A DNA stretch of 64,000 nt from an uncultured Candidatus Saccharibacteria bacterium (GCA_964349945.1 CAYGIH010000002.1:46937-110936); one strand, 5' to 3'. Positions 1,969 to 55,939 are shown, counted from the first letter of the stretch. Numbers and translations: made by a program. Notes: generated from the letters alone by a model not told the origin.

Positions 1969-3594
1969 ATGAATAAAACAAACGATAAAAACAGTAAAGT
2001 GGCCGTGGGGTATTGCCGTGTTAGTACTGACGATCAGGCAGATCAGGGTATATCTTTAGACTACCAAGAGGAACAGTGTAAAAAAGCAGCAGAAAAAGAT
2101 GGTTATAACGATAACGAGGTCCTCATTATTAGAGATGAGGGTAAAAGTGGAACAAACCTTAAAAGAAAAGGTATTCAAGAAATTATTGATCTCGCTAAGA
2201 AAAGAGAAATCTCAATTGTATATGTTACCCACTCTGATAGACTGGCTCGTAATATCGTCGACCACGCATTCTTAAGAAACACTCTACGAGCAAACAACAT
2301 AACTTTAAAATATCTAAACGGACAATCTTCACTCGACGACGCTTCGTCAATTATGGCTGACAACATGTTCGCTACGATTAATCAGTACCACAGTGATAAC
2401 ACGAGAGAAAAAACTAAACAGGCGGTCGATACTAAAGCAGAAGCGGGCTACTTCCCAACTCACGCTCCAGTTGGTTATATAAACACTTCTAACCCAAATA
2501 AAAATTGTGAGAAAGTGGCAAAGAGAATCATCATACCTAACCCCAAGACAGGACTCCTGGTAACCGAAGCGTTTAAAACATATGCTACAGGACAATATAA
2601 CGCCTACGAGCTCAATGATTTGATGTATGCAAAGGGACTTGTGAGCAATAGTGAAAAGAAGCTGAGTCCGAGTATGGTTTACGCAATGTTAAAAAATAAG
2701 GTTTATCTTGGTGAAATACATTGGATGGATATACATAATAAAAATGGTAAACACGAACCACTCATAGATAAGGATACTTTTAACCAAGTGCAAAATATTC
2801 TATCCGAAAGGAATCAGAACAGATGTAGAAGACGGAAGTATTTTTGGCTACTTAATGGTTATATGTTTTGTGCTGAACATAATTGTAGATACACCGCAGA
2901 ATGGCACTTAAATAAATCAAAGGCTTACTATCACTGCTCAAATAAGAAAGGTTGTGGTAAATATGTTGAAAAATCTGATCTCGAAAAACAAGTGGCACAA
3001 AAATTCAAACACTTAGAGTTTAACCAAGAATTTATTAATTCAATTATAGAAAAAGTAAAATCTATTTTTGATGAAAGAAAAAATGTATATCAGTCAGCAC
3101 AAAAAACACTACAAAGCAGAAAGAATGCATGTAATGCGAAATTAAGCAGTGCTGAAAATCGCCTACTCGATGAGACCTTATCAAAAGAAGATTACTTGCG
3201 AATAAAAGAAGCTGTGATAGCAGATACTTCTAGGATTGATAAAGAGTTGAATAATCTTCAGATTGGCCATGATATCAATATAGATCTTACCAGTGAGATA
3301 TTAGGCTTCACAAAGAATATATATAACACTTACATGCAGGCACCAGAGGAACTTCAAAAGAAATTCATAAGTCTTTTCTTTGAAGGATTTGATGTTAAAG
3401 ACGGACTTATAGTAAAAGACCGATACTCCCCATTGTTCCAAGAATTACTGAACTTAAACGCCCTCTCCATAAAAAGCCCATATGGCAGAAAAGCCGTTGA
3501 AAACAAAGGAAAAGAGAAACTTATATTAGATACATCTAGGGGTGGCTACCGGGAATCGAACCCGAATTGCGAGTTCCACAAACTCGAGTGTTAA
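1969..3594 (+). CDS. Large serine recombinase (resolvase/invertase N-terminal domain + recombinase domain + zinc ribbon + coiled coil)
   Basis: The N-terminus VGYCRVSTDDQ carries the catalytic Ser. A Cys-rich zinc ribbon (CAEHNCRYTAEWHLNKSKAYYHCSNKKGC) is present and the protein is 541 aa. Its last ~18 codons are read from the complement of tRNA-His. Confidence 0.85.
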   Translation: MNKTNDKNSKVAVGYCRVSTDDQADQGISLDYQEEQCKKAAEKDGYNDNEVLIIRDEGKSGTNLKRKGIQEIIDLAKKREISIVYVTHSDRLARNIVDHAFLRNTLRANNITLKYLNGQSSLDDASSIMADNMFATINQYHSDNTREKTKQAVDTKAEAGYFPTHAPVGYINTSNPNKNCEKVAKRIIIPNPKTGLLVTEAFKTYATGQYNAYELNDLMYAKGLVSNSEKKLSPSMVYAMLKNKVYLGEIHWMDIHNKNGKHEPLIDKDTFNQVQNILSERNQNRCRRRKYFWLLNGYMFCAEHNCRYTAEWHLNKSKAYYHCSNKKGCGKYVEKSDLEKQVAQKFKHLEFNQEFINSIIEKVKSIFDERKNVYQSAQKTLQSRKNACNAKLSSAENRLLDETLSKEDYLRIKEAVIADTSRIDKELNNLQIGHDINIDLTSEILGFTKNIYNTYMQAPEELQKKFISLFFEGFDVKDGLIVKDRYSPLFQELLNLNALSIKSPYGRKAVENKGKEKLILDTSRGGYRESNPNCEFHKLEC

Positions 3595-3613
3595 CCGTTA
3601 CACCATAGCCACC
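3541..3613 (-). tRNA. tRNA-His (anticodon GTG) with the G-1:C73 feature
   Basis: The reverse complement folds as a cloverleaf GGTGGCTATGGTGTAACGGTTAACACTCGAGTTTGTGGAACTCGCAATTCGGGTTCGATTCCCGGTAGCCACC. It has the anticodon loop TTGTGGA, a GTGT/ACAC D stem and a TTCGATT T-loop. Confidence 0.85.
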
Positions 3614-4263: not shown

Positions 4264-4953
4264 TTAAGTAGAGCTATTTATGTGCTTTACTTTCAAGCCT
4301 ATCTTAGCGAAAGATTGAGCTATTTTCAATCTCTTTCTTGAAAGACACACAACATCCCTTGAATAGTACATTTTGCTCAAAATTTTGATTGAATCAGCCT
4401 TTGCGTATTTCAATTGTTCTGTACTACCCTTTCCATCTTTGGTTATATGCCCTTTAATACTTAAATGTTCAAAAATTCTTTTCTGCAACCAAAGAACAAA
4501 TTTTGGACTAGCAGAAGCAAACTCTGTATAAAACATAAAACTTGATTTCCATCTCTTGTCCCAATAAGAATAAAAGCACCCGTCTCCATCAAAACATCCG
4601 CGCAAAAAATCAAAGAAATATTCATTTGGTATATCAATTGCACCTATTGTCTTTGATTTTGCAGGAGTTAAACCAATCAACAAAAGAAATTCGTAAAATT
4701 TCTTGTTTTTAATTTGCACTCTTAATCCTTTTTTATTTAAACCTGAATTCTTTAAACCAATTTTTATATTTACACCAATACATTTATTAAAATTTTCGAG
4801 CTGTTCTCTATCATTTGAGGTCAGATCAATAAGATATGAGGTTTTAGATAAATAACCGTCTGTCGTAATCAAACCAATAGCATAAGCCAAATTACCTGAC
4901 CATTTTGTATTTATTACTATTTTTGATTTTCTTCCTCTATCCCCCATATGCAA
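4264..4953 (-). CDS. LAGLIDADG homing endonuclease (two-motif, single-chain), free-standing
   Basis: Two LAGLIDADG-like motifs are present: AIGLITTDGYL and LRGCFDGDGCF. Confidence 0.75.
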   Translation of the reverse strand: MHMGDRGRKSKIVINTKWSGNLAYAIGLITTDGYLSKTSYLIDLTSNDREQLENFNKCIGVNIKIGLKNSGLNKKGLRVQIKNKKFYEFLLLIGLTPAKSKTIGAIDIPNEYFFDFLRGCFDGDGCFYSYWDKRWKSSFMFYTEFASASPKFVLWLQKRIFEHLSIKGHITKDGKGSTEQLKYAKADSIKILSKMYYSRDVVCLSRKRLKIAQSFAKIGLKVKHINSST

Positions 4954-5028: not shown

Positions 5029-5421
5029 TTATTCTGCTGATTTTTCCTCTTTGATCTCTTCGACATCCTTAGCCATACGAGTATTTCGCATTTGTCGTCT
5101 GATATCCTTGGCTGCTCGGTCTCTAATATGATAGAGCTTGGCTCGGCGAACTTTGGATCTCTTCACCACTTCTATCTTGTCTATCATTGGAGAATAAAGG
5201 AGAAAGGTTTTTTCTACACCTACTCCAGAAGAAACTCGACGAACAGTAAAGGTGGCTCCGGCCTCCTTGCCATGTTTCCTGGAGAGCACCAATCCTTCGA
5301 AAGCCTGTAGACGAGTCTTGCCCTTCTCTTGAATCTTCTGCCAAACACGAGCAGTATCGCCTGAACGTAGGTCAAGTTTCGCTCTTTCTTCTGTGTTTAC
5401 TGGTGAATGCACTGTTTTCAT
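5029..5421 (-). CDS. rplS: 50S ribosomal protein L19
   Basis: bL19-like sequence ([33 protein letters not shown]...). Confidence 0.9.
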
Positions 5422-5461
5422 AAGTCAGACTAATTTACCACAAGCACTGACCTGTGGCAAA

Positions 5462-5494
5462 TGAAAAGGGCGGTGTCTCCTAGAGACACCGCCC
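5462..5494 (-). terminator. Intrinsic terminator for the GC-rich small gene
   Basis: Perfect 12-bp stem GGGCGGTGTCTC/GAGACACCGCCC, with an A-run on the plus strand giving a U-run on the minus strand. Confidence 0.7.
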
Positions 5495-5509
5495 AACCCC
5501 AGAAAAGGT

Positions 5510-5800
5510 TCAAGCAGCAGAACGCGCCGCTGCCACCATCTGCTCGTACGCAGCCCGGAATCGTGCCTCGTGCTCAGGGCGATACTTGTACTCCGGACGA
5601 GGATCGTGGGGTTGCCCCTCGAGATACTGAGCCCTCGACGGCGACCCTTCGCACACCACCTTGCCATCTTCGATGATAGGCAGAAGGTGACGTGGCGAGC
5701 CGAACAGCATGATCGTCGGATCATTGGCAGCATAGGCTGCGAAGATCGCTGCATCATTGTTGCTTGGGACATGCTTGCCGCACTTGTCGCACTTCATCAT
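5510..5800 (-). CDS. Hypothetical small protein with an N-terminal CxxC (MMKCDKCGKH...), strongly GC-rich
   Basis: GC-rich 97-aa ORF with its own promoter and terminator. The start was chosen at MMKCDK, preceded by a GAGG RBS. Confidence 0.5.
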   Translation of the reverse strand: MMKCDKCGKHVPSNNDAAIFAAYAANDPTIMLFGSPRHLLPIIEDGKVVCEGSPSRAQYLEGQPHDPRPEYKYRPEHEARFRAAYEQMVAAARSAA

Positions 5801-5843
5801 GGTGGACCTCGTGCTTATGTGGAATAGTGAGCCATCTACATAT

Positions 5844-5872
5844 ATAATAGCACCAATACAGCTAAAAGTCAA
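5844..5872 (-). promoter_or_regulatory. Sigma70-like promoter (TTGACT-17-TATTAT) for the GC-rich small gene
   Basis: The reverse complement reads TTGACT tttagctgtattggtgc TATTAT. Confidence 0.5.
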
Positions 5873-5891
5873 GTATTTTCATGGTTTTGTT

Positions 5892-6647
5892 TTATGGCTT
5901 AAAATCTATCTCTTTAAAGGAGTTTTGAAAATCTTCAGGGAAATCAGCCTTAATTGTATGCTCAACTCCATCTTCATCTTTGAAGGTCACTTCCTTTGCG
6001 TGCAAAGCCAATCTTTTAAATCCAAGCATTGGAGGTTTTGAGGATGCATAAAGTTTGTCACAAACAACTGGTCTTTGGAGAGACTGGAAGTGTACTCTGA
6101 TTTGATGAGTCCTTCCTGTTTTTGGTTTGGCTTCTATAAGACTAAACTCCTTTCCTCTTTTTAGAACTCTAAAATAAGTGACTGCATCCCTCATCTCCCC
6201 CGTCGCTCCACGACCCGCAGAATATTTTCTAAAATCACTTGGACTCTTGCCTATAGGCATAGATAAGGTGCCGTGATCTTCTTTCATATTGCCATACACG
6301 AATGCATAGTAAGTTTTATTTATCTTTCTCTTTAGAAATAAATTTTTCAAATGTTCGAAGCCTTTCTGAGTCTTGGCCAAGAGTAAAACACCGGAAGTAT
6401 CTCTATCCAAACGATGCACCACTCCAGAGCGATCTATGATGTCTCCCCCTTCGAGTCTAATCATCTCTCCCACCCCCTTGGCCTCAGGGAATTTCTCCAC
6501 AAGCCAACCAGAAACAGAGTCTTCTTTGGTCCTTCCATCCCCATGCACAATAATCCCAGCCGGTTTGTTTATGGCCAAGATATCTTCATTTTCAAAAAGG
6601 ATGGTTTTGGTTAAATCAATCATAGGTATACCAAGAGGATACATCAT
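5892..6647 (-). CDS. RluA-family pseudouridine synthase
   Basis: HRLDRDTSGVLLLAKT catalytic-Asp motif. The true start may be an internal Met. Confidence 0.8.
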   Translation of the reverse strand: MMYPLGIPMIDLTKTILFENEDILAINKPAGIIVHGDGRTKEDSVSGWLVEKFPEAKGVGEMIRLEGGDIIDRSGVVHRLDRDTSGVLLLAKTQKGFEHLKNLFLKRKINKTYYAFVYGNMKEDHGTLSMPIGKSPSDFRKYSAGRGATGEMRDAVTYFRVLKRGKEFSLIEAKPKTGRTHQIRVHFQSLQRPVVCDKLYASSKPPMLGFKRLALHAKEVTFKDEDGVEHTIKADFPEDFQNSFKEIDFKP

Positions 6648-10460: not shown

Positions 10461-10551
10461 GGAGGAGTGGCTCGAGCGGTTTAAGGCACCACTCTTGAAA
10501 AGTGGAATCTGGGCAACTGGATCGTGAGTTCGAATCTCACCTCCTCCGCCA
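10461..10551 (+). tRNA. tRNA-Ser (anticodon TGA), with long variable arm and encoded CCA
   Basis: GGAGGAGTGGCTCGAGCGGTTTAAGGCACCACTCTTGAAAAGTGG...GTTCGAATCTCACCTCCTCCGCCA, close to bacterial tRNA-Ser(UGA). Confidence 0.9.
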
Positions 10552-10638
10552 AAATTGTGATTCTTGATATTCTATATTTTTATGATATGGTTTGAACGGG
10601 TCGTTCTTTAGGCCCTCCCTCATCACAAGGAGTCCTGG

Positions 10639-11214
10639 ATGCGTATTCGTATGATGTCGCTCCTGTCCGCGGCGTTGCTCGCTGCGTGCACGAGCGAGCC
10701 CACTGCTCCAAAGGCGGTGGAGCAGGCTGTCTCCACTTCGAGTGACATGATGGCTCTCAAGGGTGGCAGCTGCACTCTCGCCGATGGTCGGGTTGTGGCT
10801 CCGGGCTTCAACGCCCTCGGTTACAACTACTGCGCCGGCCTTTTCAACGGCCCCGCGGATGGAACCGACAAGGTTCTCGACGGTAAGGTCTGGGGTGACC
10901 CAACCTATGCCGCAGATCACCTCGTCATGAAGTGGAACTCTGCATGGGATGCATGCAACGCAAATCGTAACGTCACGAACTGCACCGGCGCCTGGACCGA
11001 CAATGAATGGAATGGCAAGGTGGCCGGAGGAAGCGGAGAGTCCTGGCACTACAAGATCAAGTGGGTGGGCTCGTGCGGATCATACGGCACACCCCTCGCA
11101 AGTGGCGGATACTGCATCTGGAATGAATATGCAGTATTGTTTTCCCACGGGTCAGTGGCCAACCAACACTTCTGGGACACTCACGCCAAGCCGGCCGGCT
11201 ACGGCACCCAGTAA
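10639..11214 (+). CDS. GC-rich lipoprotein (signal peptide with LAAC lipobox), function unknown
   Basis: N-terminus MRIRMMSLLSAALLAAC. The CDS is much more GC-rich than its surroundings, with an AAGGAG RBS and a terminator after it. Confidence 0.55.
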   Translation: MRIRMMSLLSAALLAACTSEPTAPKAVEQAVSTSSDMMALKGGSCTLADGRVVAPGFNALGYNYCAGLFNGPADGTDKVLDGKVWGDPTYAADHLVMKWNSAWDACNANRNVTNCTGAWTDNEWNGKVAGGSGESWHYKIKWVGSCGSYGTPLASGGYCIWNEYAVLFSHGSVANQHFWDTHAKPAGYGTQ

Positions 11215-11224
11215 GATTTCCCAC

Positions 11225-11258
11225 GGGCGCGATGCAATAGCACGCGCTCTTTTTTTAT
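11225..11258 (+). terminator. Intrinsic terminator after the GC-rich lipoprotein gene
   Basis: GCGCG...CGCGC stem followed by TCTTTTTTT. Confidence 0.5.
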
Positions 11259-11291
11259 TATTTAGATTTATTTTTGTGCTAGAATTTATGT

Positions 11292-12813: not shown

Positions 12814-13167
12814 TCAACAAACATCTCCAACTGGACCTCTGTAGTGAAGCTCGATTTCACCCAAGTATCTTGTGATTGAATCACCCATTTCCTCAATGGA
12901 TATAGAATCATCAAATACACCTTCAATCCTGGCCATTACCACTCCGAGAGGCTCTTCGTTTATCCTTGGTTCCGGCCAGGCTCTGAGGTTGAGGTCGTAC
13001 AATCCCCTCATGAACTCCCTGACCTCCTTGATCTCCCAGGGAGACCTTTTGAAAACCTCCTCAGACAATGGTCCAAGCATAACAACATAGCCCTCTCTCC
13101 CCATCCCAGTGAGAAATGAACTCACCCGCCCACCCTCGTTCACCTCGAGCAAAAGATACCGATTCAT
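12814..13167 (-). CDS. Hypothetical protein (moderately GC-enriched)
   Basis: 117-aa ORF with no motif recognised. Its composition is somewhat GC-richer than the neighbouring genes. Confidence 0.3.
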   Translation of the reverse strand: MNRYLLLEVNEGGRVSSFLTGMGREGYVVMLGPLSEEVFKRSPWEIKEVREFMRGLYDLNLRAWPEPRINEEPLGVVMARIEGVFDDSISIEEMGDSITRYLGEIELHYRGPVGDVC

Positions 13168-13240
13168 ATGGCACCTCCGTTCGGGAATGTCCTACTGGTG
13201 GTTACAAGTTCTATATGTATTATATACCCATCAAACTTAT

Positions 13241-15018: not shown

Positions 15019-15091
15019 GCGCCCGTAGCTCAGTCGGTAGAGCAGCTCCCTTTTAAGGAGATGGTCATAGGTTCGATTCCTATCGGGCGCA
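15019..15091 (+). tRNA. tRNA-Lys (anticodon TTT)
   Basis: GCGCCCGTAGCTCAGTCGGTAGAGCAGCTCCCTTTTAAGGAGA...GGTTCGATTCCTATCGGGCGCA. Confidence 0.85.
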
Positions 15092-15135
15092 CAACTTGAA
15101 TTAATAACCCTGCATGCTAGGGTATTCGAAGATTC

Positions 15136-15687
15136 ATGTACCTACATAAGGAGCCTAAAGTGACCCAGCCACTCATCCGTGTACCAGAACCAGACCCGAA
15201 CTTCGTTGGGCCTCAATCGTGGTTGAATTACCTCAATGACGGTAGTTCAATTTGTTTCTATGAAGACGTGCATTATTACCTGTCGAACTTCTCCGCCTTC
15301 GCGCTTGTGCTTGGTGGAGAACTCTGGATGACCGTGGAGCACGCCTATCAGGGTTTGAAATTCGACCCGAAGCGTTACTCTGCAATCCGTTCACAAATCA
15401 AGGATGCTCTGTCGGCGCATGAGGCCAAGAAACTTGCATACTTGTGCAAGGATTGCATTCGGCCAGACTGGGAAGCTGTGAAGCTCGACATCATGCGGGG
15501 TTTGATCCATGCGAAGATTCAACAGCATCCGTATGTCCAGAAGAAACTTCTCCAGACTGGTGATGCCGTCCTCATCGAGAACTCGCACAGGGACTCATTC
15601 TGGGGTCGCGGACCAGACTGGCAAGGTATGAATCACCTCGGTCGAATCTGGATGGAGCTCCGTGGTGAACTGAGGAAAATGAAGTGA
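15136..15687 (+). CDS. NADAR-domain protein (YbiA-like N-glycosidase/ADP-ribose-processing fold), GC-enriched
   Basis: Motifs SNFS, VEHAYQGLKF, DSFWGRGPDWQGMNHLGRIWMELR are present. The start may instead be the GTG at 15160, which follows an AAGGAG RBS. Confidence 0.7.
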   Translation: MYLHKEPKVTQPLIRVPEPDPNFVGPQSWLNYLNDGSSICFYEDVHYYLSNFSAFALVLGGELWMTVEHAYQGLKFDPKRYSAIRSQIKDALSAHEAKKLAYLCKDCIRPDWEAVKLDIMRGLIHAKIQQHPYVQKKLLQTGDAVLIENSHRDSFWGRGPDWQGMNHLGRIWMELRGELRKMK

Positions 15688-15694
15688 GATTATC

Positions 15695-15718
15695 GAGCAC
15701 CAATAGGTGCTCTTTTTT
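15695..15718 (+). terminator. Intrinsic terminator after the NADAR gene
   Basis: GAGCACC aata GGTGCTC followed by TTTTTT. Confidence 0.6.
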
Positions 15719-20046: not shown

Positions 20047-20078
20047 ATGAAAAAAGGCGAAGGATTCTCCTCCGCCTT
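20047..20078 (-). terminator. Intrinsic terminator after the GC-rich lipoprotein gene
   Basis: Stem AAGGCGAAGGA/TCCTCCGCCTT with one mismatch, then a U-run on the minus strand. Confidence 0.55.
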
Positions 20079-20104
20079 AGCCCCATGAAAGGCTCGAGCT
20101 TCCA

Positions 20105-20518
20105 CTACTTGATGCACCCTCCTCGGCCGTTCGGGAGGTTCAGATAATTCACCTCCCACACCTCGTTCTTCTCCCCTTCGTACGAAGAGATCGAGTAGCG
20201 ACGGGTGTCGGTGCCGAGAAATTCTTTCTTCTCGTTGTAACCTCTGACAACGAGAGTGAATTCGCCATTTGTGAAAGGTTGGCGAACCAGTGGTGCAACA
20301 ACGTGATCTGCATATGGCAAGCCAACGCTGTAAACGACTGTGCCCGTAAAAACATCAATATACGGCACACAATTGTTTTGCACGGTCACCAGCACTCGCT
20401 GTTGAAGCGAGACCGTACCAAACCTTGGCCCGTGTGGCTGTTGGATGATGACCGGAGCACATGCGCTCTGGCTCATCACGACACCCACAACGATGAGGGT
20501 TGAAAGGAACTTGCGCAT
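20105..20518 (-). CDS. GC-rich lipoprotein, function unknown
   Basis: The N-terminus MRKFLSTLIVVGVVMSQSAC has a signal peptide and lipobox-like Cys. The CDS is strongly GC-rich and preceded by a GGAGG RBS. Confidence 0.5.
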   Translation of the reverse strand: MRKFLSTLIVVGVVMSQSACAPVIIQQPHGPRFGTVSLQQRVLVTVQNNCVPYIDVFTGTVVYSVGLPYADHVVAPLVRQPFTNGEFTLVVRGYNEKKEFLGTDTRRYSISSYEGEKNEVWEVNYLNLPNGRGGCIK

Positions 20519-20556
20519 GGTGACCTCCGTGTCCGAATTGGTTTGCCAGCGTTTGT

Positions 20557-20585
20557 ATACCTATATTATATACCCAAAGTCACTT
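20557..20585 (-). promoter_or_regulatory. Consensus sigma70 promoter (TTGACA-17-TATAAT) for the GC-rich lipoprotein gene
   Basis: The reverse complement reads TTGACA aaaagtgactttgggta TATAAT. Confidence 0.55.
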
Positions 20586-20659
20586 TTTGTCAAGAGTAAT
20601 TTAGCCTAGGATTATAGGCTTATTCTGGTATTTGGTCTTATATAAGATACAATAGAGTC

Positions 20660-39241: not shown

Positions 39242-39859
39242 CTAAACCAACGGTTCTCGATAAGGATCTATACCACCCACGTATTTAGAAGTGGCGGTGA
39301 CAGACTGGGTGAGGTGTTCTTCTACGATATTCTTTGAAGTTTCTGCTTGAACTGGTTGAATAATTGGTTTTGACTCGACAACTACAGGATTCTCTACAAC
39401 AGGTTTTTCTTCTAATAAGTTAATATTTTTGTGTTGAGCTTCTGGTTCTACATTCAAAACAGGCTTGTTTTCTTCGGTGTGTTCAGGGATAAGAACTTCT
39501 TCTTCAGGCAAATCAATTAATGCTTCTGGTTTGGGGGTGTTTAATGCATCCAAGCTATCTGCCATCATTAAGATTGGTGAAAAGACTTCATCCTCGATCT
39601 CTTTTATGAGAGTATCTATTGTTTTCTCATCTATAGAAAGCTCCCTTTTTAAATTTTCTCTGAAGTTTTCTTGTGGTTCAAAACAATAAATTATAAGGAG
39701 AGTTTCTGTTTCCAAAGTTTTTAATTTATCTTCATCAAGTCCAGCACTTTCTCCAATTCCCCTGATCGATTCCTTCCACGACACAGTTTTAATAGCCTCT
39801 TGTAGTGGTTGAGGGAGAGTTTCTAATTGTGCTTGAGTTAATTTGTCTAAGTCGTTCAT
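39242..39859 (-). CDS. Acidic hypothetical protein (T4SS-like operon member)
   Basis: E/D/P-rich 205-aa protein. Confidence 0.3.
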   Translation of the reverse strand: MNDLDKLTQAQLETLPQPLQEAIKTVSWKESIRGIGESAGLDEDKLKTLETETLLIIYCFEPQENFRENLKRELSIDEKTIDTLIKEIEDEVFSPILMMADSLDALNTPKPEALIDLPEEEVLIPEHTEENKPVLNVEPEAQHKNINLLEEKPVVENPVVVESKPIIQPVQAETSKNIVEEHLTQSVTATSKYVGGIDPYREPLV

Positions 39860-42159
39860 GATTCTGGTGTTGTTTTTTTGTCTCCGCCTTCCTTTTTACT
39901 CCCACCTTCCTCTTTTGGTTTTTCGCTACCAGCTTTATCTTTTGCTGCTTCCTCTACTTCTGCTTCTGCTAATAAATCTTTTGCTTTTTCTCTTTTACTT
40001 TTTTCTTTTGAAGCTGTTCGAATAGCAGCAGCCTGTCTTCCCCCTGCGCTAACAAATGAAGTTATCCTTCCAGAGATTGTCTTCACAGCTTCTTCTTTGT
40101 TTGTTGTTATTTCTCCGTTTTTGTTTATATAATTCCCATATTGATCAACTTTGTATCCTTCTTGTATCCTGGCAGCTCTTTCCATACTAGATACTTTTGT
40201 ATTATTTTTTCTTTCAATTGCTTTTTCATGAGCTTCCTTTGTTGATCTTGATTGCTCAGCTACATAATTGTTCCTTGATTCAGTTCTTAACCTTTTTTGT
40301 TCATCGAATTTTGCCTTGGCGGCAGCCACTTTTCTAGATTTTTCCTCAGCTGTGCCTCCATATGGGTTGCCATTTGAATCAACAATTGTTGATACTGGTT
40401 TAGCTGCATCCTCTTCTGCTAATCTCAATTCATTTTCTGCACCAGCATATTCAACCGAAGCGGGGTTTTCTGCTTCAAATTTTTCTTCTGCTTTCGAGAC
40501 AGCACTATCATGTATTTTTTTGGCTTGCTCCTCTGCTTCCTCTGCGGCTTTTACTTGGTCAACCTTAGGTTTATACGACGCATATCTTTTTTCTAACTCC
40601 TTTTTATCAGTAGCGTAGCCGCCGCTAGGTGCACTACCAGCTCCTAGTGTCCCACCCAAAGCAGAACCACGCAAATCAAGGCTACTTTTTGCCCCCTTAT
40701 TTGCTGCCATAAGAGCAAGTCGTGCAGACATACTACCTTCAGCGGCTGCCTTTTTAAGTTTTTCATTATCAGCGATATTTTGAAATCCTGCACCCAAGGT
40801 TGATCTTCCTACATTCGAAACCAATCCAAATGACGCAGATCCAGCTTTCTTCATTGCCCATTGGTTCATTCCAGAGACTATACTTCCAGATTTATCAGAA
40901 ACCTTTTTAGCTATTAATATGGTCGCGATTAGGAACGCGATAATAACAATAAAATTCATAATTAATCCAATATTGCCCACTCCTGCTTCTGCGCTTTGGA
41001 TTATGACCCCGGCGGCATTCTTTTTTTCTACTAAACTCCCAGTTAATGCATCTCCCAGTGTTGATGTAGAAGGAGTACAGACCCCATTTACCATTTTGTT
41101 TCCGTATATAAAAGTACAAGAATTAAATATTTTAATCACAACCCAAGTGATAATCATATAAACTGGTGCAAACAACGCTTGACCAGTTAAGGCATCTTTC
41201 CATTGGTCAGCATAAGTTTTCATCCCTGGGATGATGCTTCCAACTACAAATATTGGGGAAAGAATTAAAACAAATATCAGGACTACATACCTAATAATAA
41301 ACATAAGCGCAATTGCAAAAAATATGAACGCCGCGATGAGTGTGAAAACAGATCCGAGTATACCTATAGTAATGAGGTTGGTTCCAGATAAATTGTCACT
41401 AAGATTCCAAATACTAGATAGGTTAAGTGGCTTCATTATTGCATTCGATAGACCAGTTTGAAGAAGATTTGCTTCATTCACATCTCCACTAACTATTGCT
41501 TTGTAGAAAGTGAGGGTTATAAGATTTGAAGCGTCTATTACTAGTGAAGTGAAGAAAAAACTAAAGTTCATAAGGAGCGCTGCAATGATCATATTCACCA
41601 CAAACTTTTGAGTTTCCTTGCCTTCACCAACTATGGTCCTTATAGCTTGATAGAGGAGAATAAAGATAAAGGTCATGTTTGCGAGATCCCTTATCATTCC
41701 CCAACTTATTTTTATAGCCCCGATATCTCTATAATGTTCTGCCATATCGACAACGGTATACAAGAGAACGAAATTCAAAAGAGCTCCAGCTAGTAAGGTT
41801 ATTAAGCTGAGTAGTCTCATGATAGTAAGGGCAATCCAGCCGACACCCTTCATAAGACAACCAGTAAGATTTGTTAAACCGCAGGTGTCGTCAGTCTGCG
41901 CGGCAGCCATAGCTAACACTGGAGCAGCTCCGGAAGCTCCTGGGTTTGAGGCGGCCGTGGGGGCTGGCGGCAGGGTTGCAGCTCCTGGTGCTGGACCTTG
42001 TCCACCACTAGCAGGTCCTAATCCTCCTTGTCCAGGTAATAATTGTGCGTAGATATTGGAATGAGGAGTAAGAAATCCAACTAATGTCACAAATATTAAA
42101 ATGAAATAGATCCCTTTTTTCATTGTTGATTTAGAGCATTTACATAAATCGAAGTACAA
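39856..42159 (-). CDS. VirB6/TrbL-like polytopic membrane protein with a C-terminal charged tail
   Basis: Signal peptide, Gly/Ala/Pro-rich low-complexity segment, more than six TM helices and a K/E/A-rich C-terminus. Confidence 0.5.
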   Translation of the reverse strand: MYFDLCKCSKSTMKKGIYFILIFVTLVGFLTPHSNIYAQLLPGQGGLGPASGGQGPAPGAATLPPAPTAASNPGASGAAPVLAMAAAQTDDTCGLTNLTGCLMKGVGWIALTIMRLLSLITLLAGALLNFVLLYTVVDMAEHYRDIGAIKISWGMIRDLANMTFIFILLYQAIRTIVGEGKETQKFVVNMIIAALLMNFSFFFTSLVIDASNLITLTFYKAIVSGDVNEANLLQTGLSNAIMKPLNLSSIWNLSDNLSGTNLITIGILGSVFTLIAAFIFFAIALMFIIRYVVLIFVLILSPIFVVGSIIPGMKTYADQWKDALTGQALFAPVYMIITWVVIKIFNSCTFIYGNKMVNGVCTPSTSTLGDALTGSLVEKKNAAGVIIQSAEAGVGNIGLIMNFIVIIAFLIATILIAKKVSDKSGSIVSGMNQWAMKKAGSASFGLVSNVGRSTLGAGFQNIADNEKLKKAAAEGSMSARLALMAANKGAKSSLDLRGSALGGTLGAGSAPSGGYATDKKELEKRYASYKPKVDQVKAAEEAEEQAKKIHDSAVSKAEEKFEAENPASVEYAGAENELRLAEEDAAKPVSTIVDSNGNPYGGTAEEKSRKVAAAKAKFDEQKRLRTESRNNYVAEQSRSTKEAHEKAIERKNNTKVSSMERAARIQEGYKVDQYGNYINKNGEITTNKEEAVKTISGRITSFVSAGGRQAAAIRTASKEKSKREKAKDLLAEAEVEEAAKDKAGSEKPKEEGGSKKEGGDKKTTPES

Positions 42160-52709: not shown

Positions 52710-52735
52710 TAAAAAAGCCCGGTTTTACCCGGGCT
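52710..52735 (-). terminator. Intrinsic terminator after the DGQHR gene
   Basis: AGCCCGG ttttac CCGGGCT followed by a U-run on the minus strand. Confidence 0.65.
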
Positions 52736-52747
52736 GAAGGACAGACC

Positions 52748-53830
52748 TTATTCGGTCGGCTCTTCCGACTCATCCATGGACACAGCATCACCACGGCGAG
52801 AACGGATCCTCTTGGTCCGCTTGCCACTGTTGATGTGGTCACGCATGAGGATGTAGAGCATGTCAGCAGCCTTACCGTTGCCGGTGGCCAGACTGACGAT
52901 CTGCGGGTCGTTGATCGGGAAGAGAGAAATCTTGCGACGAAGCGACGCTTCGACGGTCAAGACCTTCTCATCCGACTCACGCCAGAAATCGTAATGATCC
53001 GACATGAGACGAGCGAGCACGTTCAGAAAGGTGCTCTTCACGTAGATGGCACCTTCACGATACTGGATGCGCTTGATTCCCCAGCACTCATCAACGAGCT
53101 GGAAAAAGGTCTTGGTATTCGATCGAAGGATCTGAACACCGAAGACATCAACCGCCTTATCGAGAGCAGGCACCAGTTCGTCAACGGAAGTCCGTCGCGC
53201 TGGAGCCTTGTGCGAATGCAGGTGACCAACCACCTTGAGCATGGTGAGAGCGGAGATGAGCTCCCCGCGGGTCATCCGCTGATTCCACGAGACACGGTCA
53301 TTCAGCGGGAAGCCCTTGTCGCTCGTCGAGAGCGAATAGAGGGTTGCCACTGAAGAACTGTCCTCTCGCCTGTTGCGCAGAATCACATTCGGCGACACCT
53401 TGTTGCGCAAGGTGTTCAAGATGCGGAAACGCTCCCGTTCCCACTCCTTGGTTGTGCCGAAGTGAATAGTCGCACCGAGTCGCACCTGCGCAGCTGAGTT
53501 CTGGGCCAGGAAGTGGATCGCACCATTGACGCGCTGAAGGCCGTCGATGATGTAAACCTCGTCCTTGAGCAGAGCCGTACCTTCCCTTTCGGAAAAGTTC
53601 TCACCGCGCATGCCGAGTTCGATGTCAGGAAGAGTTTCCCCTCCCTTGAGGGCTCCCAGAATGCTACTGAGAGCAGTGATCGGCGCAGCCTCACGCTGGT
53701 AGTCGTCGATCTTCAGGTGGACCAGACTATTCTGGTCGACCACACCACGCAGGACGATTTCCCCCTTTGGGGTTTCGTCGAGAGCGCAGTGGATGATGCG
53801 GATAGGCGCATCAGCCTTACGTGCGTTCAT
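52748..53830 (-). CDS. DGQHR/ParB-like-nuclease-fold protein (DndB/DUF262-related), GC-rich
   Basis: The motif YIIDGLQRVNGAIHFL matches the DGQ(H/Q)R signature of DndB/DUF262 ParB-fold proteins. The start was set at MNARKA, which follows a GGAG RBS. The CDS is strongly GC-rich. Confidence 0.55.
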   Translation of the reverse strand: MNARKADAPIRIIHCALDETPKGEIVLRGVVDQNSLVHLKIDDYQREAAPITALSSILGALKGGETLPDIELGMRGENFSEREGTALLKDEVYIIDGLQRVNGAIHFLAQNSAAQVRLGATIHFGTTKEWERERFRILNTLRNKVSPNVILRNRREDSSSVATLYSLSTSDKGFPLNDRVSWNQRMTRGELISALTMLKVVGHLHSHKAPARRTSVDELVPALDKAVDVFGVQILRSNTKTFFQLVDECWGIKRIQYREGAIYVKSTFLNVLARLMSDHYDFWRESDEKVLTVEASLRRKISLFPINDPQIVSLATGNGKAADMLYILMRDHINSGKRTKRIRSRRGDAVSMDESEEPTE

Positions 53831-53930
53831 TGCCCATCTCCATGTAATTGGGCTGTGAAAGAGCATCTCGGAGCAGTAGACTCAAAATGGTCTCTTATGT
53901 CCGAGGATTCGTCAACCGACGAAATCAAGA

Positions 53931-53962
53931 CGATTTTTACATATTTGTAGAGGGTTTGTCAA
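53931..53962 (-). promoter_or_regulatory. Sigma70-like promoter (TTGACA, ~17-nt spacer, TAAAAA/AAAAAT) for the DGQHR gene
   Basis: The reverse complement reads TTGACAaaccctctacaaatatgTAAAAAtcg. Confidence 0.4.
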
Positions 53963-53977
53963 TTATAAAATTAAGCA

Positions 53978-54019
53978 AAAGAAAACCGCGTTGCAGAGAA
54001 GGTTCTCTCTGCAACGCGG
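53978..54019 (-). terminator. Intrinsic terminator after the Pro-rich membrane protein gene
   Basis: Perfect 14-bp stem CCGCGTTGCAGAGA/TCTCTGCAACGCGG followed by a U-run. Confidence 0.65.
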
Positions 54020-54044
54020 GTACTAAGGTGCTTTGATTCTGGTG

Positions 54045-54848
54045 TTACGAACGCGCCGGCGGTGGCAACACGATGCGAGTGCCGTCCTCGTAGAAGAGAA
54101 CGACCTCATGCCGAACTGGCATAACGATCGACGGAGCCGGTGCCGGGGTCGGGGCAGGAACCGGAACGACAGGAGCCGGCGGAGCGACCACTGGGGTCGG
54201 CGTCGCGGGCACAGGCGTCGGTGCCGGAGCAACCGGAGCGGGTGCTGGCGTCTTGGGCGGAGTGTTCCGTCCGTTCAACCAGTTCCACAACTCACTCAGG
54301 AACCAGAAGATGACCGCGAGGAGCAGACCCAGGAAGAGAATGCTCAGCAGGAACTTGAAGAGGTCCCAAAGCCAGTTGGCGGCCCGTTCGAACCAGCCCC
54401 CATTCTGCTTTGCGAGCGTCTTGTTCACCGCCGTGTAGAGCTCCTTGTTCTGCTCCTTCATGGTGGCGACTTGCCGTTCGAGGTCCGCGAGCATCTCGCG
54501 ACATTTCGGGCACTCGCTCGCCTTCACGATGCGGTTGGTGCAATCCGCTTTGTAGCGGAGCGTACCATCCTGGTCGGCCCACACGATCGTGCCGCGCACG
54601 AGCGTCTCGAGGACGAAACGATTCGTGTTGTTGAAGTAGTTGAGCACCGTGACGGTGTCAGCGAGCTCAACGGCGTGCAGACCGAGCTTGGCCTGCATGG
54701 CCGGGGTCATCTCGCCCTGCTTCATGATCGGGTACTTGTTCAGCTCGGCCTCGGCCGGCGCTGCGTACGTTCCCCGCTGAGCCAGAGCGTTAGACGCTCC
54801 ACCGAAGGTGAGGACGACGATGAACATGGACAGCAAATACTTGCGCAT
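54045..54848 (-). CDS. GC-rich signal-peptide protein with an extracytoplasmic domain, a single TM helix and a Pro/Ala/Val/Thr-rich C-terminal tail
   Basis: MRKYLLSMFIVVLTFGGASNALA signal peptide, TM FKFLLSILFLGLLLAVIFWFL, and a PAPAPVAPAPTPVPATPTPVVAPPAPVV tail. Confidence 0.5.
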   Translation of the reverse strand: MRKYLLSMFIVVLTFGGASNALAQRGTYAAPAEAELNKYPIMKQGEMTPAMQAKLGLHAVELADTVTVLNYFNNTNRFVLETLVRGTIVWADQDGTLRYKADCTNRIVKASECPKCREMLADLERQVATMKEQNKELYTAVNKTLAKQNGGWFERAANWLWDLFKFLLSILFLGLLLAVIFWFLSELWNWLNGRNTPPKTPAPAPVAPAPTPVPATPTPVVAPPAPVVPVPAPTPAPAPSIVMPVRHEVVLFYEDGTRIVLPPPARS

Positions 54849-55006
54849 TTGTAGCTCCGTGGTGTGTGGTCTCTGAGTTGCGAACGATTCGCAACCAATG
54901 AATCAAAGTAAAGGTTCTTCGCACTATCTTTTTTAATATTAGCATATTCAAACCTATTTGTCAATAGAGCAAATAAAGCCTATAAATATGAGTAAATGTT
55001 ATAATA

Positions 55007-55939
55007 TTGTGCGACATGGCTACGACAGAACTTGAAAATTTAAAACGGCAATTTCTCGAACACACGGAGATTGAGAGAGGTCGTGCACTCAAAACTATTG
55101 AGAACTATGATCACTATCTCACTCGGTTTTTAACTTTTTCTAAAGCAAAGAATGCAAAGGATATAGATGAAAGTTTAATTAGAGAATTTAGGTTGTGGTT
55201 GAACAGACAATCAACAGGCAACAATAGAGCGACGAGGCAAACTCTTTCTAAAAAGACTCAGAATTATTATATGATTGCTCTTCGTGCGTTTTTAAAATTT
55301 TTGGCCAAAAAAGGAATCAAATCTCTTTCACCGGAAGTAATAGAATTAGCAAAAGTGCCTGAACGACACCTCGACCTCATCTCCCCTTCTGAACTCACTC
55401 GACTCCTCGATGCACCGAAGGGTGATGATTTAATTTCTCTCCGAGATAGAGCCATCTTAGAATTATTTTTCTCTACCGGTCTTCGTGTTTCTGAACTTGC
55501 GTCGCTTACAAATGATTTGGATTTAAAGGCTGATGAATTTTCTATCAGAGGTAAGGGCAGTAAAGTGCGTGTAGTTTTCCTTTCGGACGAAGCCAAGGAT
55601 GCTTTGAAGAAATATTTGGCTGCGAGGAAAGATATGAGTGATGCGATGTTTGTCTCTGTGGGTGGTGAGTCTAAGAAGAAAGAACCCACCCAACTCACTC
55701 GTCGGTCCATAGAGAGGTTAGTCAAAAAATATGCTATTAAGGCTGGGATATCGAAGAAAGTTACTCCTCACGTTATCCGCCACTCCTTCGCCACTGACCT
55801 ACTCTCGAACGGTGCAGACATAAGAAGTGTCCAAATGCTCCTTGGCCACGCGAACATCTCTACTACGCAGATTTATACACATGTGACAGACAAAGCCCTT
55901 CGAGACACCCACAAAAAATTCCACACAAGGAGAAAATAG
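55007..55939 (+). CDS. xerC: Tyrosine site-specific recombinase, XerC/XerD type
   Basis: C-terminal catalytic region HVIRHSFAT...LLGHANISTTQIYTHV with the catalytic Tyr. Confidence 0.8.
   Translation: MCDMATTELENLKRQFLEHTEIERGRALKTIENYDHYLTRFLTFSKAKNAKDIDESLIREFRLWLNRQSTGNNRATRQTLSKKTQNYYMIALRAFLKFLAKKGIKSLSPEVIELAKVPERHLDLISPSELTRLLDAPKGDDLISLRDRAILELFFSTGLRVSELASLTNDLDLKADEFSIRGKGSKVRVVFLSDEAKDALKKYLAARKDMSDAMFVSVGGESKKKEPTQLTRRSIERLVKKYAIKAGISKKVTPHVIRHSFATDLLSNGADIRSVQMLLGHANISTTQIYTHVTDKALRDTHKKFHTRRK

What the first reader, a model, noticed from the sequence alone, without database searches (positions are those of the whole stretch)
5425..5890. GC-rich single-gene islet with host-style promoter and terminator between rplS and the pseudouridine synthase
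About 450 bp of sharply elevated GC (runs such as cgccgctgccaccatctgctcgtacgcagcccgg) encode a 97-aa protein starting MMKCDKCGKH. It is flanked by an AT-rich TTGACT-17-TATTAT promoter and a perfect 12-bp-stem terminator. The composition is unlike the ~AT-rich host genes on both sides. This is one of six such islets in the window.
Basis: seen in the sequence. Interest (0 to 1): 0.5.

Follow-up and report, generated by a model that had tools for sequence, protein, structure and literature searches.

The report
Foreign single-gene cassette beside rplS
A 428-bp GC-rich stretch carrying its own promoter, one small zinc-binding protein gene of unknown function and its own terminator was inserted between two housekeeping genes of an AT-rich ultra-small bacterium; this is ordinary horizontal gene transfer, caught in unusually clean detail.

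Summary
Window 5464-5891 is a 428-bp insert lying exactly between the stop codon of an RluA-family pseudouridine synthase gene and the ancestral rplS promoter.

- **Contents:** a TG-extended sigma-70-type promoter, a 96-aa ORF (not 97) and a 12-bp-stem intrinsic terminator.
- **Composition:** the ORF has GC 0.59 and GC3 0.65, against a host median GC3 of 0.32.
- **Not a chimera:** an independent assembly has the same gene order. A diverged sister lineage (L033) carries the orthologous insert.
- **Insertion, not loss:** the next clade (L118) and more than 10 further relatives have RluA directly followed by rplS. L118's 42-nt spacer matches window 5422-5463.
- **Purifying selection:** dN 0.11, with dS saturated.
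- **Protein family:** about 670 unannotated small proteins, nearly all from Patescibacteria. They share invariant C-C-H-C residues and a GSPSRAQY(L/I)xGQPRDxR motif. The AlphaFold model is confident (pLDDT 96) and has no relative in the libraries that could be searched (solved structures and predicted viral structures).
- **Likely source:** family genes are GC-richer than host codon usage predicts in 20 of 24 cellular loci. They match their surroundings in two ~61% GC viral contigs, so a GC-rich mobile pool is suggested.

Verdict: a chromosomal, moron-like, horizontally acquired cassette. The molecular function is unknown; a regulatory or adapter role is a weak inference.

The parts
5464..5891 (-). 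The whole 428-bp insert: promoter, 5' UTR, CDS and terminator.
   Evidence: Comparison with the empty site in L118. L118's 42-nt spacer CATTTGCCACATGCACGCGCTTGTGTTAAATTGGTCTGACTT corresponds to window 5463..5422, and the RluA stop codon is 5892-5894. No target-site duplication or terminal inverted repeat was found.
5844..5872 (-). Sigma-70-type promoter TTGACT-17-TATTAT with a TG extension. It lies in the AT-rich leader of the insert.
   Evidence: L033 conserves it as TTGACA-17-TATTAT with GTGCTATTATAT identical.
5807..5810 (-). Shine-Dalgarno GAGG, 6 nt upstream of the ATG.
   Evidence: Read from the sequence. CGAGGT is conserved in L033.
5510..5800 (-). CDS of 96 aa plus stop. It encodes a small soluble protein of an unannotated family with invariant Cys4, Cys7, His38 and Cys50.
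   Evidence: dN is 0.11 with saturated dS against L033. The AlphaFold model has pLDDT 96.4. pI is 6.9 and there is no hydrophobic segment.
5464..5494 (-). Intrinsic terminator: a 12-bp GC-rich stem (5468-5494) with a 3-nt loop. The first four T of its T tract (5464-5467) are insert sequence. The tail then runs on into the ancestral spacer.
   Evidence: The stem is conserved in L033.
5422..5463 (-). Ancestral RluA-rplS spacer, not part of the insert. It carries the rplS promoter: TTGCCA at 5460..5455, a 17-nt spacer, then TG-extended TAAATT at 5437..5432.
   Evidence: The same 42-nt spacer is present in empty-site relative L118, and related 21-22-nt spacers occur in L038-L041, L046 and L048.
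5892..6647 (-). Upstream host gene: RluA-family pseudouridine synthase, forming the left border of the insertion site.
   Evidence: Pfam PF00849.
5029..5421 (-). Downstream host gene rplS (ribosomal protein L19), forming the right border of the insertion site.
   Evidence: Pfam PF01245.

Best explanation
This is a horizontally acquired, self-contained transcription unit of promoter, one gene and terminator. It was inserted by illegitimate (non-site-specific) recombination into the 42-nt spacer between an RluA-family gene and rplS. The insertion happened in the common ancestor of the window organism, a Parcubacteria-type Patescibacterium, and its sister lineage L033.

The insert sits immediately after the RluA stop codon and upstream of the ancestral rplS promoter. 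rplS therefore keeps its own promoter, and the cassette's terminator insulates it.

The gene came from a GC-rich gene pool. Family members match their surroundings in ~61% GC viral contigs, at least one of them a phage, and are compositional aliens in most Patescibacteria. In this genome the gene has been decaying only partly towards host composition.

The product is a 10.7-kDa cytoplasmic protein kept under purifying selection. It probably binds one zinc ion through Cys4, Cys7, His38 and Cys50.

Inferred with low confidence: it acts as a small regulatory or adapter module that contacts a conserved partner through the invariant GSPSRAQY(L/I)xGQPRDxR loop. The basis is that in a few relatives the same domain is fused to OmpR-type or XRE-type DNA-binding domains.
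For: Shown:
- Foreign composition at synonymous sites: GC3 0.66 against 0.34 expected from host codon usage.
- Independent assembly with the identical protein and the same neighbours.
- Orthologous insert in L033, where RluA is 88% identical, CobAT 94% and the islet protein 83%. Promoter, SD, terminator and both junctions are conserved.
- Empty sites in L118, L121 and L122/L123, and in L037-L044, L046-L048 and L056, with spacers of 6-60 nt. L118's spacer aligns to window 5422-5463.
- Pairwise identities place the window and L033 as sisters and L118+L119 as the next clade, so one gain suffices.
- Purifying selection: dN 0.11, and 49 of 96 third positions differ.
- The family is real: 74 single-sequence hits, 383 representatives at 50% identity and 668 profile hits, all unnamed.
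- 22 of 24 species-level loci carry Patescibacteria or unassigned 'bacterium' labels, or 'Gammaproteobacteria' MAG labels that I did not check.
- Neighbours differ in every genome.
- Gene GC3 exceeds the host expectation in 20 of 24 cellular loci, mean +0.17, Wilcoxon P = 3.7e-5. The excess is only +0.03 and +0.06 in the two distinct viral contigs, which are about 61% GC; L113 carries a terminase with E = 1e-42.
- A second, independent example is L117: the closest long-contig homolog is again a GC-rich islet with a perfect TTGACA-18-TATAAT promoter, between fba and rplY.
- Invariant C4, C7, H38 and C50.
- Fusions to Trans_reg_C (P0115, P0206) and HTH_3 (P0126).
Against: - No mobility signature marks the insert: no target-site duplication, no terminal repeat and no adjacent integrase. 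The mechanism of insertion is therefore inferred.
- The donor is not identified. The viral contigs are only about 50-55% identical at protein level, and their hosts are unknown.
- A two-state amelioration model using host 4-fold sites predicts GC4 of 0.62 or less by now, even from an ancestor at 100% GC. The observed value is 0.71 (n = 36; P = 0.09 for an ancestor at 1.0, P = 0.015 for 0.9). Simple neutral decay therefore fits only marginally.
- Zinc binding is inferred from residue conservation alone.
Confidence: 0.8

Rival explanations
1. The GC-rich composition is actively maintained rather than being a decaying relic. One route is selection, or GC-biased conversion, acting on synonymous sites of this family. 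The other is repeated replacement of the resident copy by diverged alleles from a GC-rich mobile pool, such as phage, at a recombination hot spot.
For: - Window and L033 copies differ at 67% of 4-fold sites, against 46% in host genes (Fisher P = 0.02). Both still keep GC4 of 0.64-0.78.
- Neutral decay at host rates predicts GC4 of 0.62 or less.
- The GC3 excess is family-wide and does not correlate with host GC3 (Spearman rho 0.25, P = 0.24).
- The same junction holds unrelated cargo, namely DGR cassettes, in L035, L119 and L120. That marks it as a hot spot.
Against: - Some family members are fully ameliorated (L013, L014, L024, L028, L029, L030), so GC-richness is not required for function.
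- The S/W discordance of 0.47 fits non-equilibrium decay (predicted 0.47) better than stationarity (predicted 0.32, P = 0.04).
- Only 36 sites were available and the model is crude.
- Promoter, terminator and junctions are conserved between the window and L033, which argues against wholesale replacement.
Confidence: 0.15
2. The islet is an assembly or binning chimera: a fragment of a GC-rich organism joined into an AT-rich contig.
For: Sharp GC steps at both ends, and several such islets in one contig.
Against: - The same protein with the same four neighbours appears on an independently assembled Logan contig.
- A diverged relative from another metagenome has the same insert at the same junctions.
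- The promoter and terminator are in register with the ORF, and the ORF is under purifying selection.
Confidence: 0.02
3. The gene is ancestral in this clade and was lost from the relatives. Its GC content only reflects an Ala/Gly/Pro/Arg-rich protein.
For: GC1 (0.57) and GC2 (0.48) are also above host values. The conserved motif is rich in G, P, R and A.
Against: - GC3 is 0.66 against 0.34 expected for this very protein with host codons.
- More than 12 relatives in at least three clades have a short intact spacer with the rplS promoter. That would need many precise deletions.
- Family members sit in different neighbourhoods in every genome.
Confidence: 0.03

Closest known systems
Phage 'morons', as described for lambdoid phages by Juhala, Hendrix and colleagues around 2000 (cited from my own knowledge, not checked here).
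   Same: - A single ORF with its own sigma-70 promoter and intrinsic terminator.
- Inserted between two genes that are adjacent in relatives.
- Nucleotide composition differs from the flanks.
- No transposition signature.
   Different: - The flanks here are chromosomal housekeeping genes (RluA, rplS), not phage genes.
- The host is a Patescibacterium.
- The cargo is GC-richer than the host, and its family also occurs in GC-rich phage contigs.
Individually transferred genes and genomic islands in Patescibacteria (PMC12455944).
   Same: [quoted passage not shown] Up to 13% of genome length was attributed to HGT, mostly between Patescibacteria. This window has about 7% of its length in GC-rich islets.
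   Different: This case is resolved to the base pair, with an empty site, and shows the promoter-gene-terminator design. The paper text does not mention promoters (0 occurrences).
Integron gene cassettes.
   Same: Single-gene mobile units inserted at a recurrent site.
   Different: - This unit has its own promoter and a terminator hairpin.
- No attC-like imperfect palindrome was found apart from the terminator.
- There is no integron integrase nearby and no cassette array.
DGR (diversity-generating retroelement) cassettes at the same RluA-rplS junction in relatives L035, L119 and L120.
   Same: They occupy the identical intergenic site, and their target genes are also GC-rich (0.63 in L035).
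   Different: They are multi-gene cassettes of target gene, template repeat, bAvd and reverse transcriptase. They share no sequence similarity with the islet.

Membership tests
Moron (autonomous promoter-gene-terminator unit) | Inserted between genes that are adjacent in related genomes. | tested here: met
   RluA is directly followed by rplS in L118, L121, L122/L123, L037-L044, L046-L048 and L056.
Moron (autonomous promoter-gene-terminator unit) | Own promoter and own factor-independent terminator. | tested here: met
   Consensus scans, hairpin energy z = -6.3 and conservation in L033. This is in silico only; transcription was not measured.
Moron (autonomous promoter-gene-terminator unit) | Nucleotide composition unlike the neighbouring genes. 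| tested here: met
   GC 0.59 against 0.39. GC3 0.66 against 0.34 expected.
Moron (autonomous promoter-gene-terminator unit) | Resides in a phage or prophage genome. | tested here: not met
   The flanks are RluA, rplS, a LAGLIDADG gene, Cob_adeno_trans and tRNAs. So it is moron-like, not a moron in the strict sense.
Classical genomic island | More than about 10 kb, at a tRNA gene, flanked by direct repeats, with an integrase. | tested here: not met
   The insert is 428 bp, has no flanking repeat and has no tRNA at the junction. The nearest recombinase (1969-3594) is separated from it by host genes.
Integron cassette | attC recombination site, promoterless ORF and a nearby IntI integrase. | tested here: not met
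   The only strong inverted repeat is the terminator. The unit has its own promoter. No tyrosine integrase is adjacent.
Any curated protein family (Pfam, NCBIfam, PHROGs, PADLOC, PDB) | A significant profile, sequence or fold match. | tested here: not met
   - Best Pfam E-value is 0.078 (DUF7685, covering the CxxC knuckle only).
- No other library gave a significant hit.
- The AFDB library was unavailable.
Zinc-binding small protein (zinc-ribbon or knuckle type) | Four conserved metal ligands, including a CxxC knuckle. | tested here: inconclusive
   C4, C7, H38 and C50 are invariant in 25 sequences. The model coordinates could not be inspected and the metal was not measured.

The most novel reading that the evidence does not exclude
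This small-protein family may belong to a GC-rich mobile (phage-borne) gene pool that repeatedly seeds promoter-gene-terminator cassettes into Patescibacteria of very different base composition. Under this reading, its GC-rich synonymous composition is actively kept, by re-seeding or by selection, instead of ameliorating. The RluA-rplS junction would then be a dedicated hot spot that also receives DGR cassettes. The protein itself would be a new zinc-binding fold acting in phage-host or episymbiont-host conflict or regulation.
Probability: 0.15. Interest if true: 0.65.

Novelty: new member of a known kind. Interest (0 to 1): 0.38.

Why it matters
- **A textbook-clean HGT example.** It shows how a streamlined, AT-rich Patescibacterium gains a gene. 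A complete transcription unit dropped between a stop codon and the next gene's promoter without disturbing either neighbour. A filled site, an empty site and alternative cargo (DGRs) at the same junction are all sampled in nature.
- **An unannotated protein family.** It flags about 670 small proteins at 90% clustering with near-invariant motifs and a confidently predicted fold with no relative among solved structures or predicted viral structures (AFDB could not be searched). The family is shared between Patescibacteria and GC-rich viral contigs, which makes it a reasonable target for structural and functional work.
- **A possible marker of gene flow.** The family-wide GC excess, if confirmed, could trace gene flow from a GC-rich mobile pool into ultra-small bacteria.

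None of this overturns current understanding. HGT in Patescibacteria is already documented.

Tried and rejected
**Searches for a known family or fold**
- Pfam, NCBIfam, PHROGs and PADLOC scans of the protein and of 25 family members gave nothing significant.
- A profile search of PDB sequences gave 0 hits at E up to 10.
- Foldseek against AFDB was unavailable.

**Searches for a donor or a mobility signature**
- tblastn against INPHARED phages and PLSDB plasmids gave no match.
- Flanking direct or inverted repeats that could be a target-site duplication or element ends were not found.
- Conserved neighbours across 27 loci: none. The only recurrence is a large serine recombinase within 2-3.5 kb in 3 loci. 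In the window, host genes and tRNAs lie between it and the islet, so I do not link the two.
- The L113 terminase has cultured-phage relatives at 29% identity or less (Thermus, Halorubrum, Tunturiibacter phages), which gives no host clue.

**Tests of the other islets**
- tblastn of the other window islet proteins against all fetched loci gave no hits, so there is no shared source with islet 1.
- Viral-contig scans with four other islet proteins found no close relatives.

**Explanations rejected:** chimeric assembly, an amino-acid-composition artefact, and an ancestral gene with multiple losses (see rivals).

Full report
**1. The observation**

The window is 39.3% GC. Between about 5400 and 5800, 300-nt windows reach 0.57-0.58 and 200-nt windows reach 0.63.

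The minus strand carries an ORF at 5510..5800 of 96 codons plus a stop, starting MMKCDKCGKH.

Its GC is 0.59 and its GC3 is 0.65-0.66. The median GC3 of 71 window ORFs is 0.32. If this protein were encoded with the codon usage of its neighbours, its GC3 would be 0.34. Amino-acid content therefore does not explain the excess.

The consensus scan finds two flanking signals:
- TTGACT-17-TATTAT with a TG extension at 5872..5844 on the minus strand.
- A perfect 12-bp stem at 5494..5468 followed by TTTTCATTTG.

The hairpin folds at -27.9 kcal/mol, z = -6.3, and 0 of 200 shuffles fold as well. A GAGG lies 6 nt upstream of the ATG. The neighbours are an RluA-family pseudouridine synthase gene (5892-6647) and rplS (5029-5421), all on the minus strand.

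**2. It is not a chimera**

The exact protein occurs on an independently assembled Logan contig (ERR3094302, L001). The gene order there is the same: PseudoU_synth_2, the gene, L19, a LAGLIDADG gene, Cob_adeno_trans.

A JGI metagenome contig (L033) from a diverged relative carries an orthologous copy at the same place. Protein identities to the window are RluA 88%, L19 93%, CobAT 94% and the islet protein 83%. The promoter is conserved (TTGACA-17-TATTAT, with GTGCTATTATAT identical). So are the SD, the terminator stem and both junctions.

**3. It is an insertion, mapped to the base**

I retrieved relatives through the RluA protein.

- RluA is followed directly by rplS in L118, L121 and L122/L123. 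The same holds in L037-L044, L046-L048 and L056. Spacers are 6-60 nt.
- Pairwise identities of RluA, L19, CobAT and RuvX place the window and L033 as sisters. L118+L119 form the next clade and L121+L122 a further one. A single gain in the (window, L033) ancestor is enough.
- L118's 42-nt spacer is CATTTGCCACATGCACGCGCTTGTGTTAAATTGGTCTGACTT. It aligns with window 5463..5422, CATTTGCCACAGGTCAGTGCTTGTGGTAAATTAGTCTGACTT.

The insert is therefore 5464..5891, 428 bp. It lies exactly between the RluA stop codon (5892-5894) and the ancestral spacer.

That spacer holds the rplS promoter, TTGCCA-17-TAAATT with a TG extension, at 5460..5432. The promoter is present in the empty site too, so rplS kept its own promoter.

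The insert consists of 91 nt of AT-rich leader with the promoter, a 291-nt CDS and 46 nt with the terminator. No target-site duplication, terminal inverted repeat or adjacent integrase is present. The mechanism of insertion, illegitimate recombination, is therefore an inference.

**4. The junction is a hot spot**

In L035 (RluA 58% identical) and in L119/L120 (81%), the same intergenic site holds a diversity-generating retroelement. Each has:
- a GC-rich target gene (0.63 in L035) with a C-terminal variable region,
- an asparagine-rich template repeat,
- a bAvd-type accessory gene,
- a reverse transcriptase.

**5. The gene is functional**

Between the window and L033, dN is 0.11. Forty-nine of 96 third positions differ, and the Nei-Gojobori dS of 2.6 is saturated. 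This is strong purifying selection in the annotated frame. The long alternative-frame ORFs in the segment are the usual by-product of GC-rich DNA.

**6. The protein family**

| Search | Result |
|---|---|
| Single-sequence search | 74 homologs |
| Profile against 1.84 billion representatives | 383 clusters at 50% identity |
| Profile word search | 668 proteins at 90% clustering |

All are named 'hypothetical' or unnamed, and none has a Pfam domain.

In one-genome-per-species data the family occurs in 24 of 185,579 species. The record labels are Saccharibacteria, Parcubacteria, Uhrbacteria, Adlerbacteria, Pacebacteria and generic Patescibacteria. There are also one unassigned 'bacterium' MAG, six 'Gammaproteobacteria' MAG labels that I did not verify, and one Udaeobacter.

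The alignment shows these invariant residues:
- C4, K6, C7, N15, R37, H38, L40 and C50
- G52-S-P-S55 and A57-Q-Y59
- D66 and Y85

The signature is CDKCG...NDA...(P)RHLLP...CEGSPSRAQY(L/I)xGQPRDxR. C4, C7, H38 and C50 form a plausible zinc site, which is an inference.

AlphaFold2 on 25 sequences gives pLDDT 96.4 and pTM 0.86. The model has an N-terminal knuckle, two short helices, a beta-hairpin, a long conserved loop and a 21-residue C-terminal helix.

No solved or viral predicted structure resembles it:
- Foldseek against PDB: E of 3.3 or more.
- BFVD: E of 1.7 or more.
- AFDB could not be searched.

Pfam, NCBIfam, PHROGs, PADLOC and PDB sequence searches gave nothing. The protein is soluble with pI 6.9.

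Three cluster representatives fuse the domain N-terminally to DNA-binding domains: Trans_reg_C in P0115 and P0206, and HTH_3 in P0126. This is the only functional hint. It suggests a sensing or partner-binding module in transcription control. I rate that reading at about 0.3.

**7. Where it comes from**

Neighbours of family members differ in every genome. Clustering the ORFs of 27 loci found no conserved partner.

Family genes are GC-richer than host codon usage predicts in 20 of 24 cellular loci. The mean GC3 excess is +0.17 (Wilcoxon P = 3.7e-5), and gene GC3 does not correlate with host GC3.

The closest homolog on a long contig is P0003 on L117, at 61% identity. It is again a GC-rich islet (about 0.60 against about 0.38), between fba and rplY, behind a perfect TTGACA-18-TATAAT promoter. 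Promoter-like sites lie within 200 nt upstream in 13 of the 27 loci scanned, all 13 of them among the 25 cellular loci. These promoters are not homologous to one another.

In contrast, three IMG/VR contigs carry the gene in a matching context:
- L113 is 140 kb and L115 is 130 kb; L114 (78 kb) has the same coordinates and scores as L113 and appears to be the same sequence. L113 and L115 are 61-62% GC.
- L113 has a large terminase 1.5 kb upstream (phrog_2, E = 1e-42).
- The gene's GC3 is 0.74-0.76, against 0.71-0.73 for the surrounding viral genes.

A GC-rich, at least partly phage-borne gene pool is therefore the most likely source. The actual donor is unknown, and the hosts of these phages could not be inferred.

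**8. Amelioration**

I compared 4-fold degenerate sites with conserved amino acids between the window and L033.

| | Host genes (8 genes, n = 493) | Islet gene (n = 36) |
|---|---|---|
| GC4 | 0.28 | 0.71 |
| S/W discordance | 0.31 | 0.47 |
| Any difference | 46% | 67% |

The difference in 'any difference' has Fisher P = 0.02. The host values give a two-state relaxation of 1.48.

The discordance fits non-equilibrium decay from a very GC-rich ancestor (predicted 0.47). It fits a stationary GC-rich state less well (predicted 0.32, P = 0.04). However, the remaining GC is higher than decay predicts. The model gives 0.62 or less even from a 100% GC ancestor (P = 0.09), and 0.58 from a 90% GC ancestor (P = 0.015).

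With 36 sites and a crude model I treat this as unexplained, not as evidence for selection. It keeps alive the rival that GC is maintained or re-seeded.

**9. The other islets**

Six genes in the window have GC3 of 0.60 or more.

| Islet | Product | Promoter | Terminator |
|---|---|---|---|
| 20105-20518 (-) | 137-aa lipoprotein-like | TTGACA-17-TATAAT | 11-bp stem |
| 54045-54848 (-) | 267 aa | TTGACA-17-TAATAT | 15-bp stem |
| 52748-53866 (-) | 372 aa | TTGACA-18-AAAAAT | 7-bp stem |
| 15136-15687 (+) | NADAR domain; follows tRNA-Lys | none of its own found | terminator present |
| 10639-11214 (+) | lipoprotein; follows tRNA-Ser | TTGATA-16-TATGGT (weak, 9/12) | none found |

None of these proteins is related to islet 1 or to anything in the loci fetched. 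The four scanned against viral contigs (all but the NADAR gene) gave no close relative.

**10. Comparison with what is known**

The architecture is that of a phage 'moron': own promoter, one ORF, own terminator, deviant composition, and insertion between genes that are adjacent in relatives. That comparison comes from my own knowledge of the lambdoid-phage literature.

The unit sits in a chromosomal housekeeping context, so it fails the 'in a phage genome' criterion. It is best called moron-like. It is neither a classical genomic island nor an integron cassette.

Frequent HGT, including individually transferred genes, has been reported for groundwater Patescibacteria (PMC12455944). The phenomenon is therefore expected. 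What is new here is the base-pair resolution and the unannotated protein family.

**11. Verdict**

This is an ordinary kind of event, horizontal acquisition of a single-gene cassette, documented unusually cleanly. The cargo is an uncharacterized small zinc-binding-type protein whose fold has no solved relative. Interest is moderate to low at 0.38. Novelty: a new member of a known kind.

Noticed in passing
L035:808-3439; L119:3732-6427; L120:1510-4195: Relatives carry a diversity-generating retroelement at exactly the RluA-rplS junction where the window has the islet. Each has a GC-rich target gene with a C-terminal variable region, an Asn-rich template repeat, a bAvd-type gene and a reverse transcriptase. 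The junction looks like an insertion hot spot.
   Followed up: partly
window 1969-3612: The last ~56 nt of a 541-aa large serine recombinase ORF (1969-3594, +) overlap an antisense tRNA-His gene (3539-3612, -). This suggests an integrated element with its attachment site in the tRNA gene. Related recombinases lie 2-3.5 kb from family members in L007 and L028 as well.
   Followed up: no
window 20054-20593: A GC-rich islet encodes a 137-aa lipoprotein-like protein (20105-20518, -; GC3 0.61). It lies behind a perfect TTGACA-17-TATAAT promoter and before an 11-bp-stem terminator. It has no Pfam or PADLOC hit.
   Followed up: partly
window 52716-54964: Two adjacent GC-rich units lie here, each with its own TTGACA promoter and hairpin terminator.
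- A 372-aa protein (52748-53866, -) has a DGLQR motif and a weak PADLOC hit to PD-T4-2_A (E = 0.003).
- A 267-aa secreted or membrane protein (54045-54848, -) has a Pro/Ala/Val-rich tail.
- Both lie next to a tyrosine-recombinase-like gene (XerC/D-like by sequence, not scanned) at 55007-55939.
   Followed up: partly
window 15019-15712: A GC-rich NADAR-domain gene (15136-15687, +; Pfam E = 9e-27; weak PADLOC hit to PDC-M42C) sits directly downstream of tRNA-Lys and is followed by a terminator. It may be a conflict-system gene.
   Followed up: no
window 10461-11273: A GC-rich 191-aa lipoprotein gene (10639-11214, +; GC3 0.70) lies immediately downstream of tRNA-Ser, a classical integration position. 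No terminator was found by the scan.
   Followed up: no
window 41768-42102: This GC peak is not an islet. It encodes the low-complexity Gly/Pro/Ala-rich N-terminal part of a 767-aa host membrane protein (39856-42159, -).
   Followed up: yes
window 4264-4953: A free-standing LAGLIDADG-type gene lies between tRNA-Leu and rplS. It is conserved at this position in L035 and L037 (65-69% aa identity). L033 and L118 lack it, and L033 has an M16-peptidase-like gene (by sequence, not scanned) there instead.
   Followed up: partly
window 12814-13206: GC is moderately elevated (up to 0.545) over a 117-aa minus-strand ORF with GC3 0.53 and no Pfam hit. It is unclear whether this is a seventh islet or a spurious ORF.
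   Followed up: no
L033:4750-4762: In L033 the RluA stop codon seen in the window (TAA) reads CAG, and the ORF runs two codons further into the start of the insert. The left junction has therefore evolved since insertion.
   Followed up: yes
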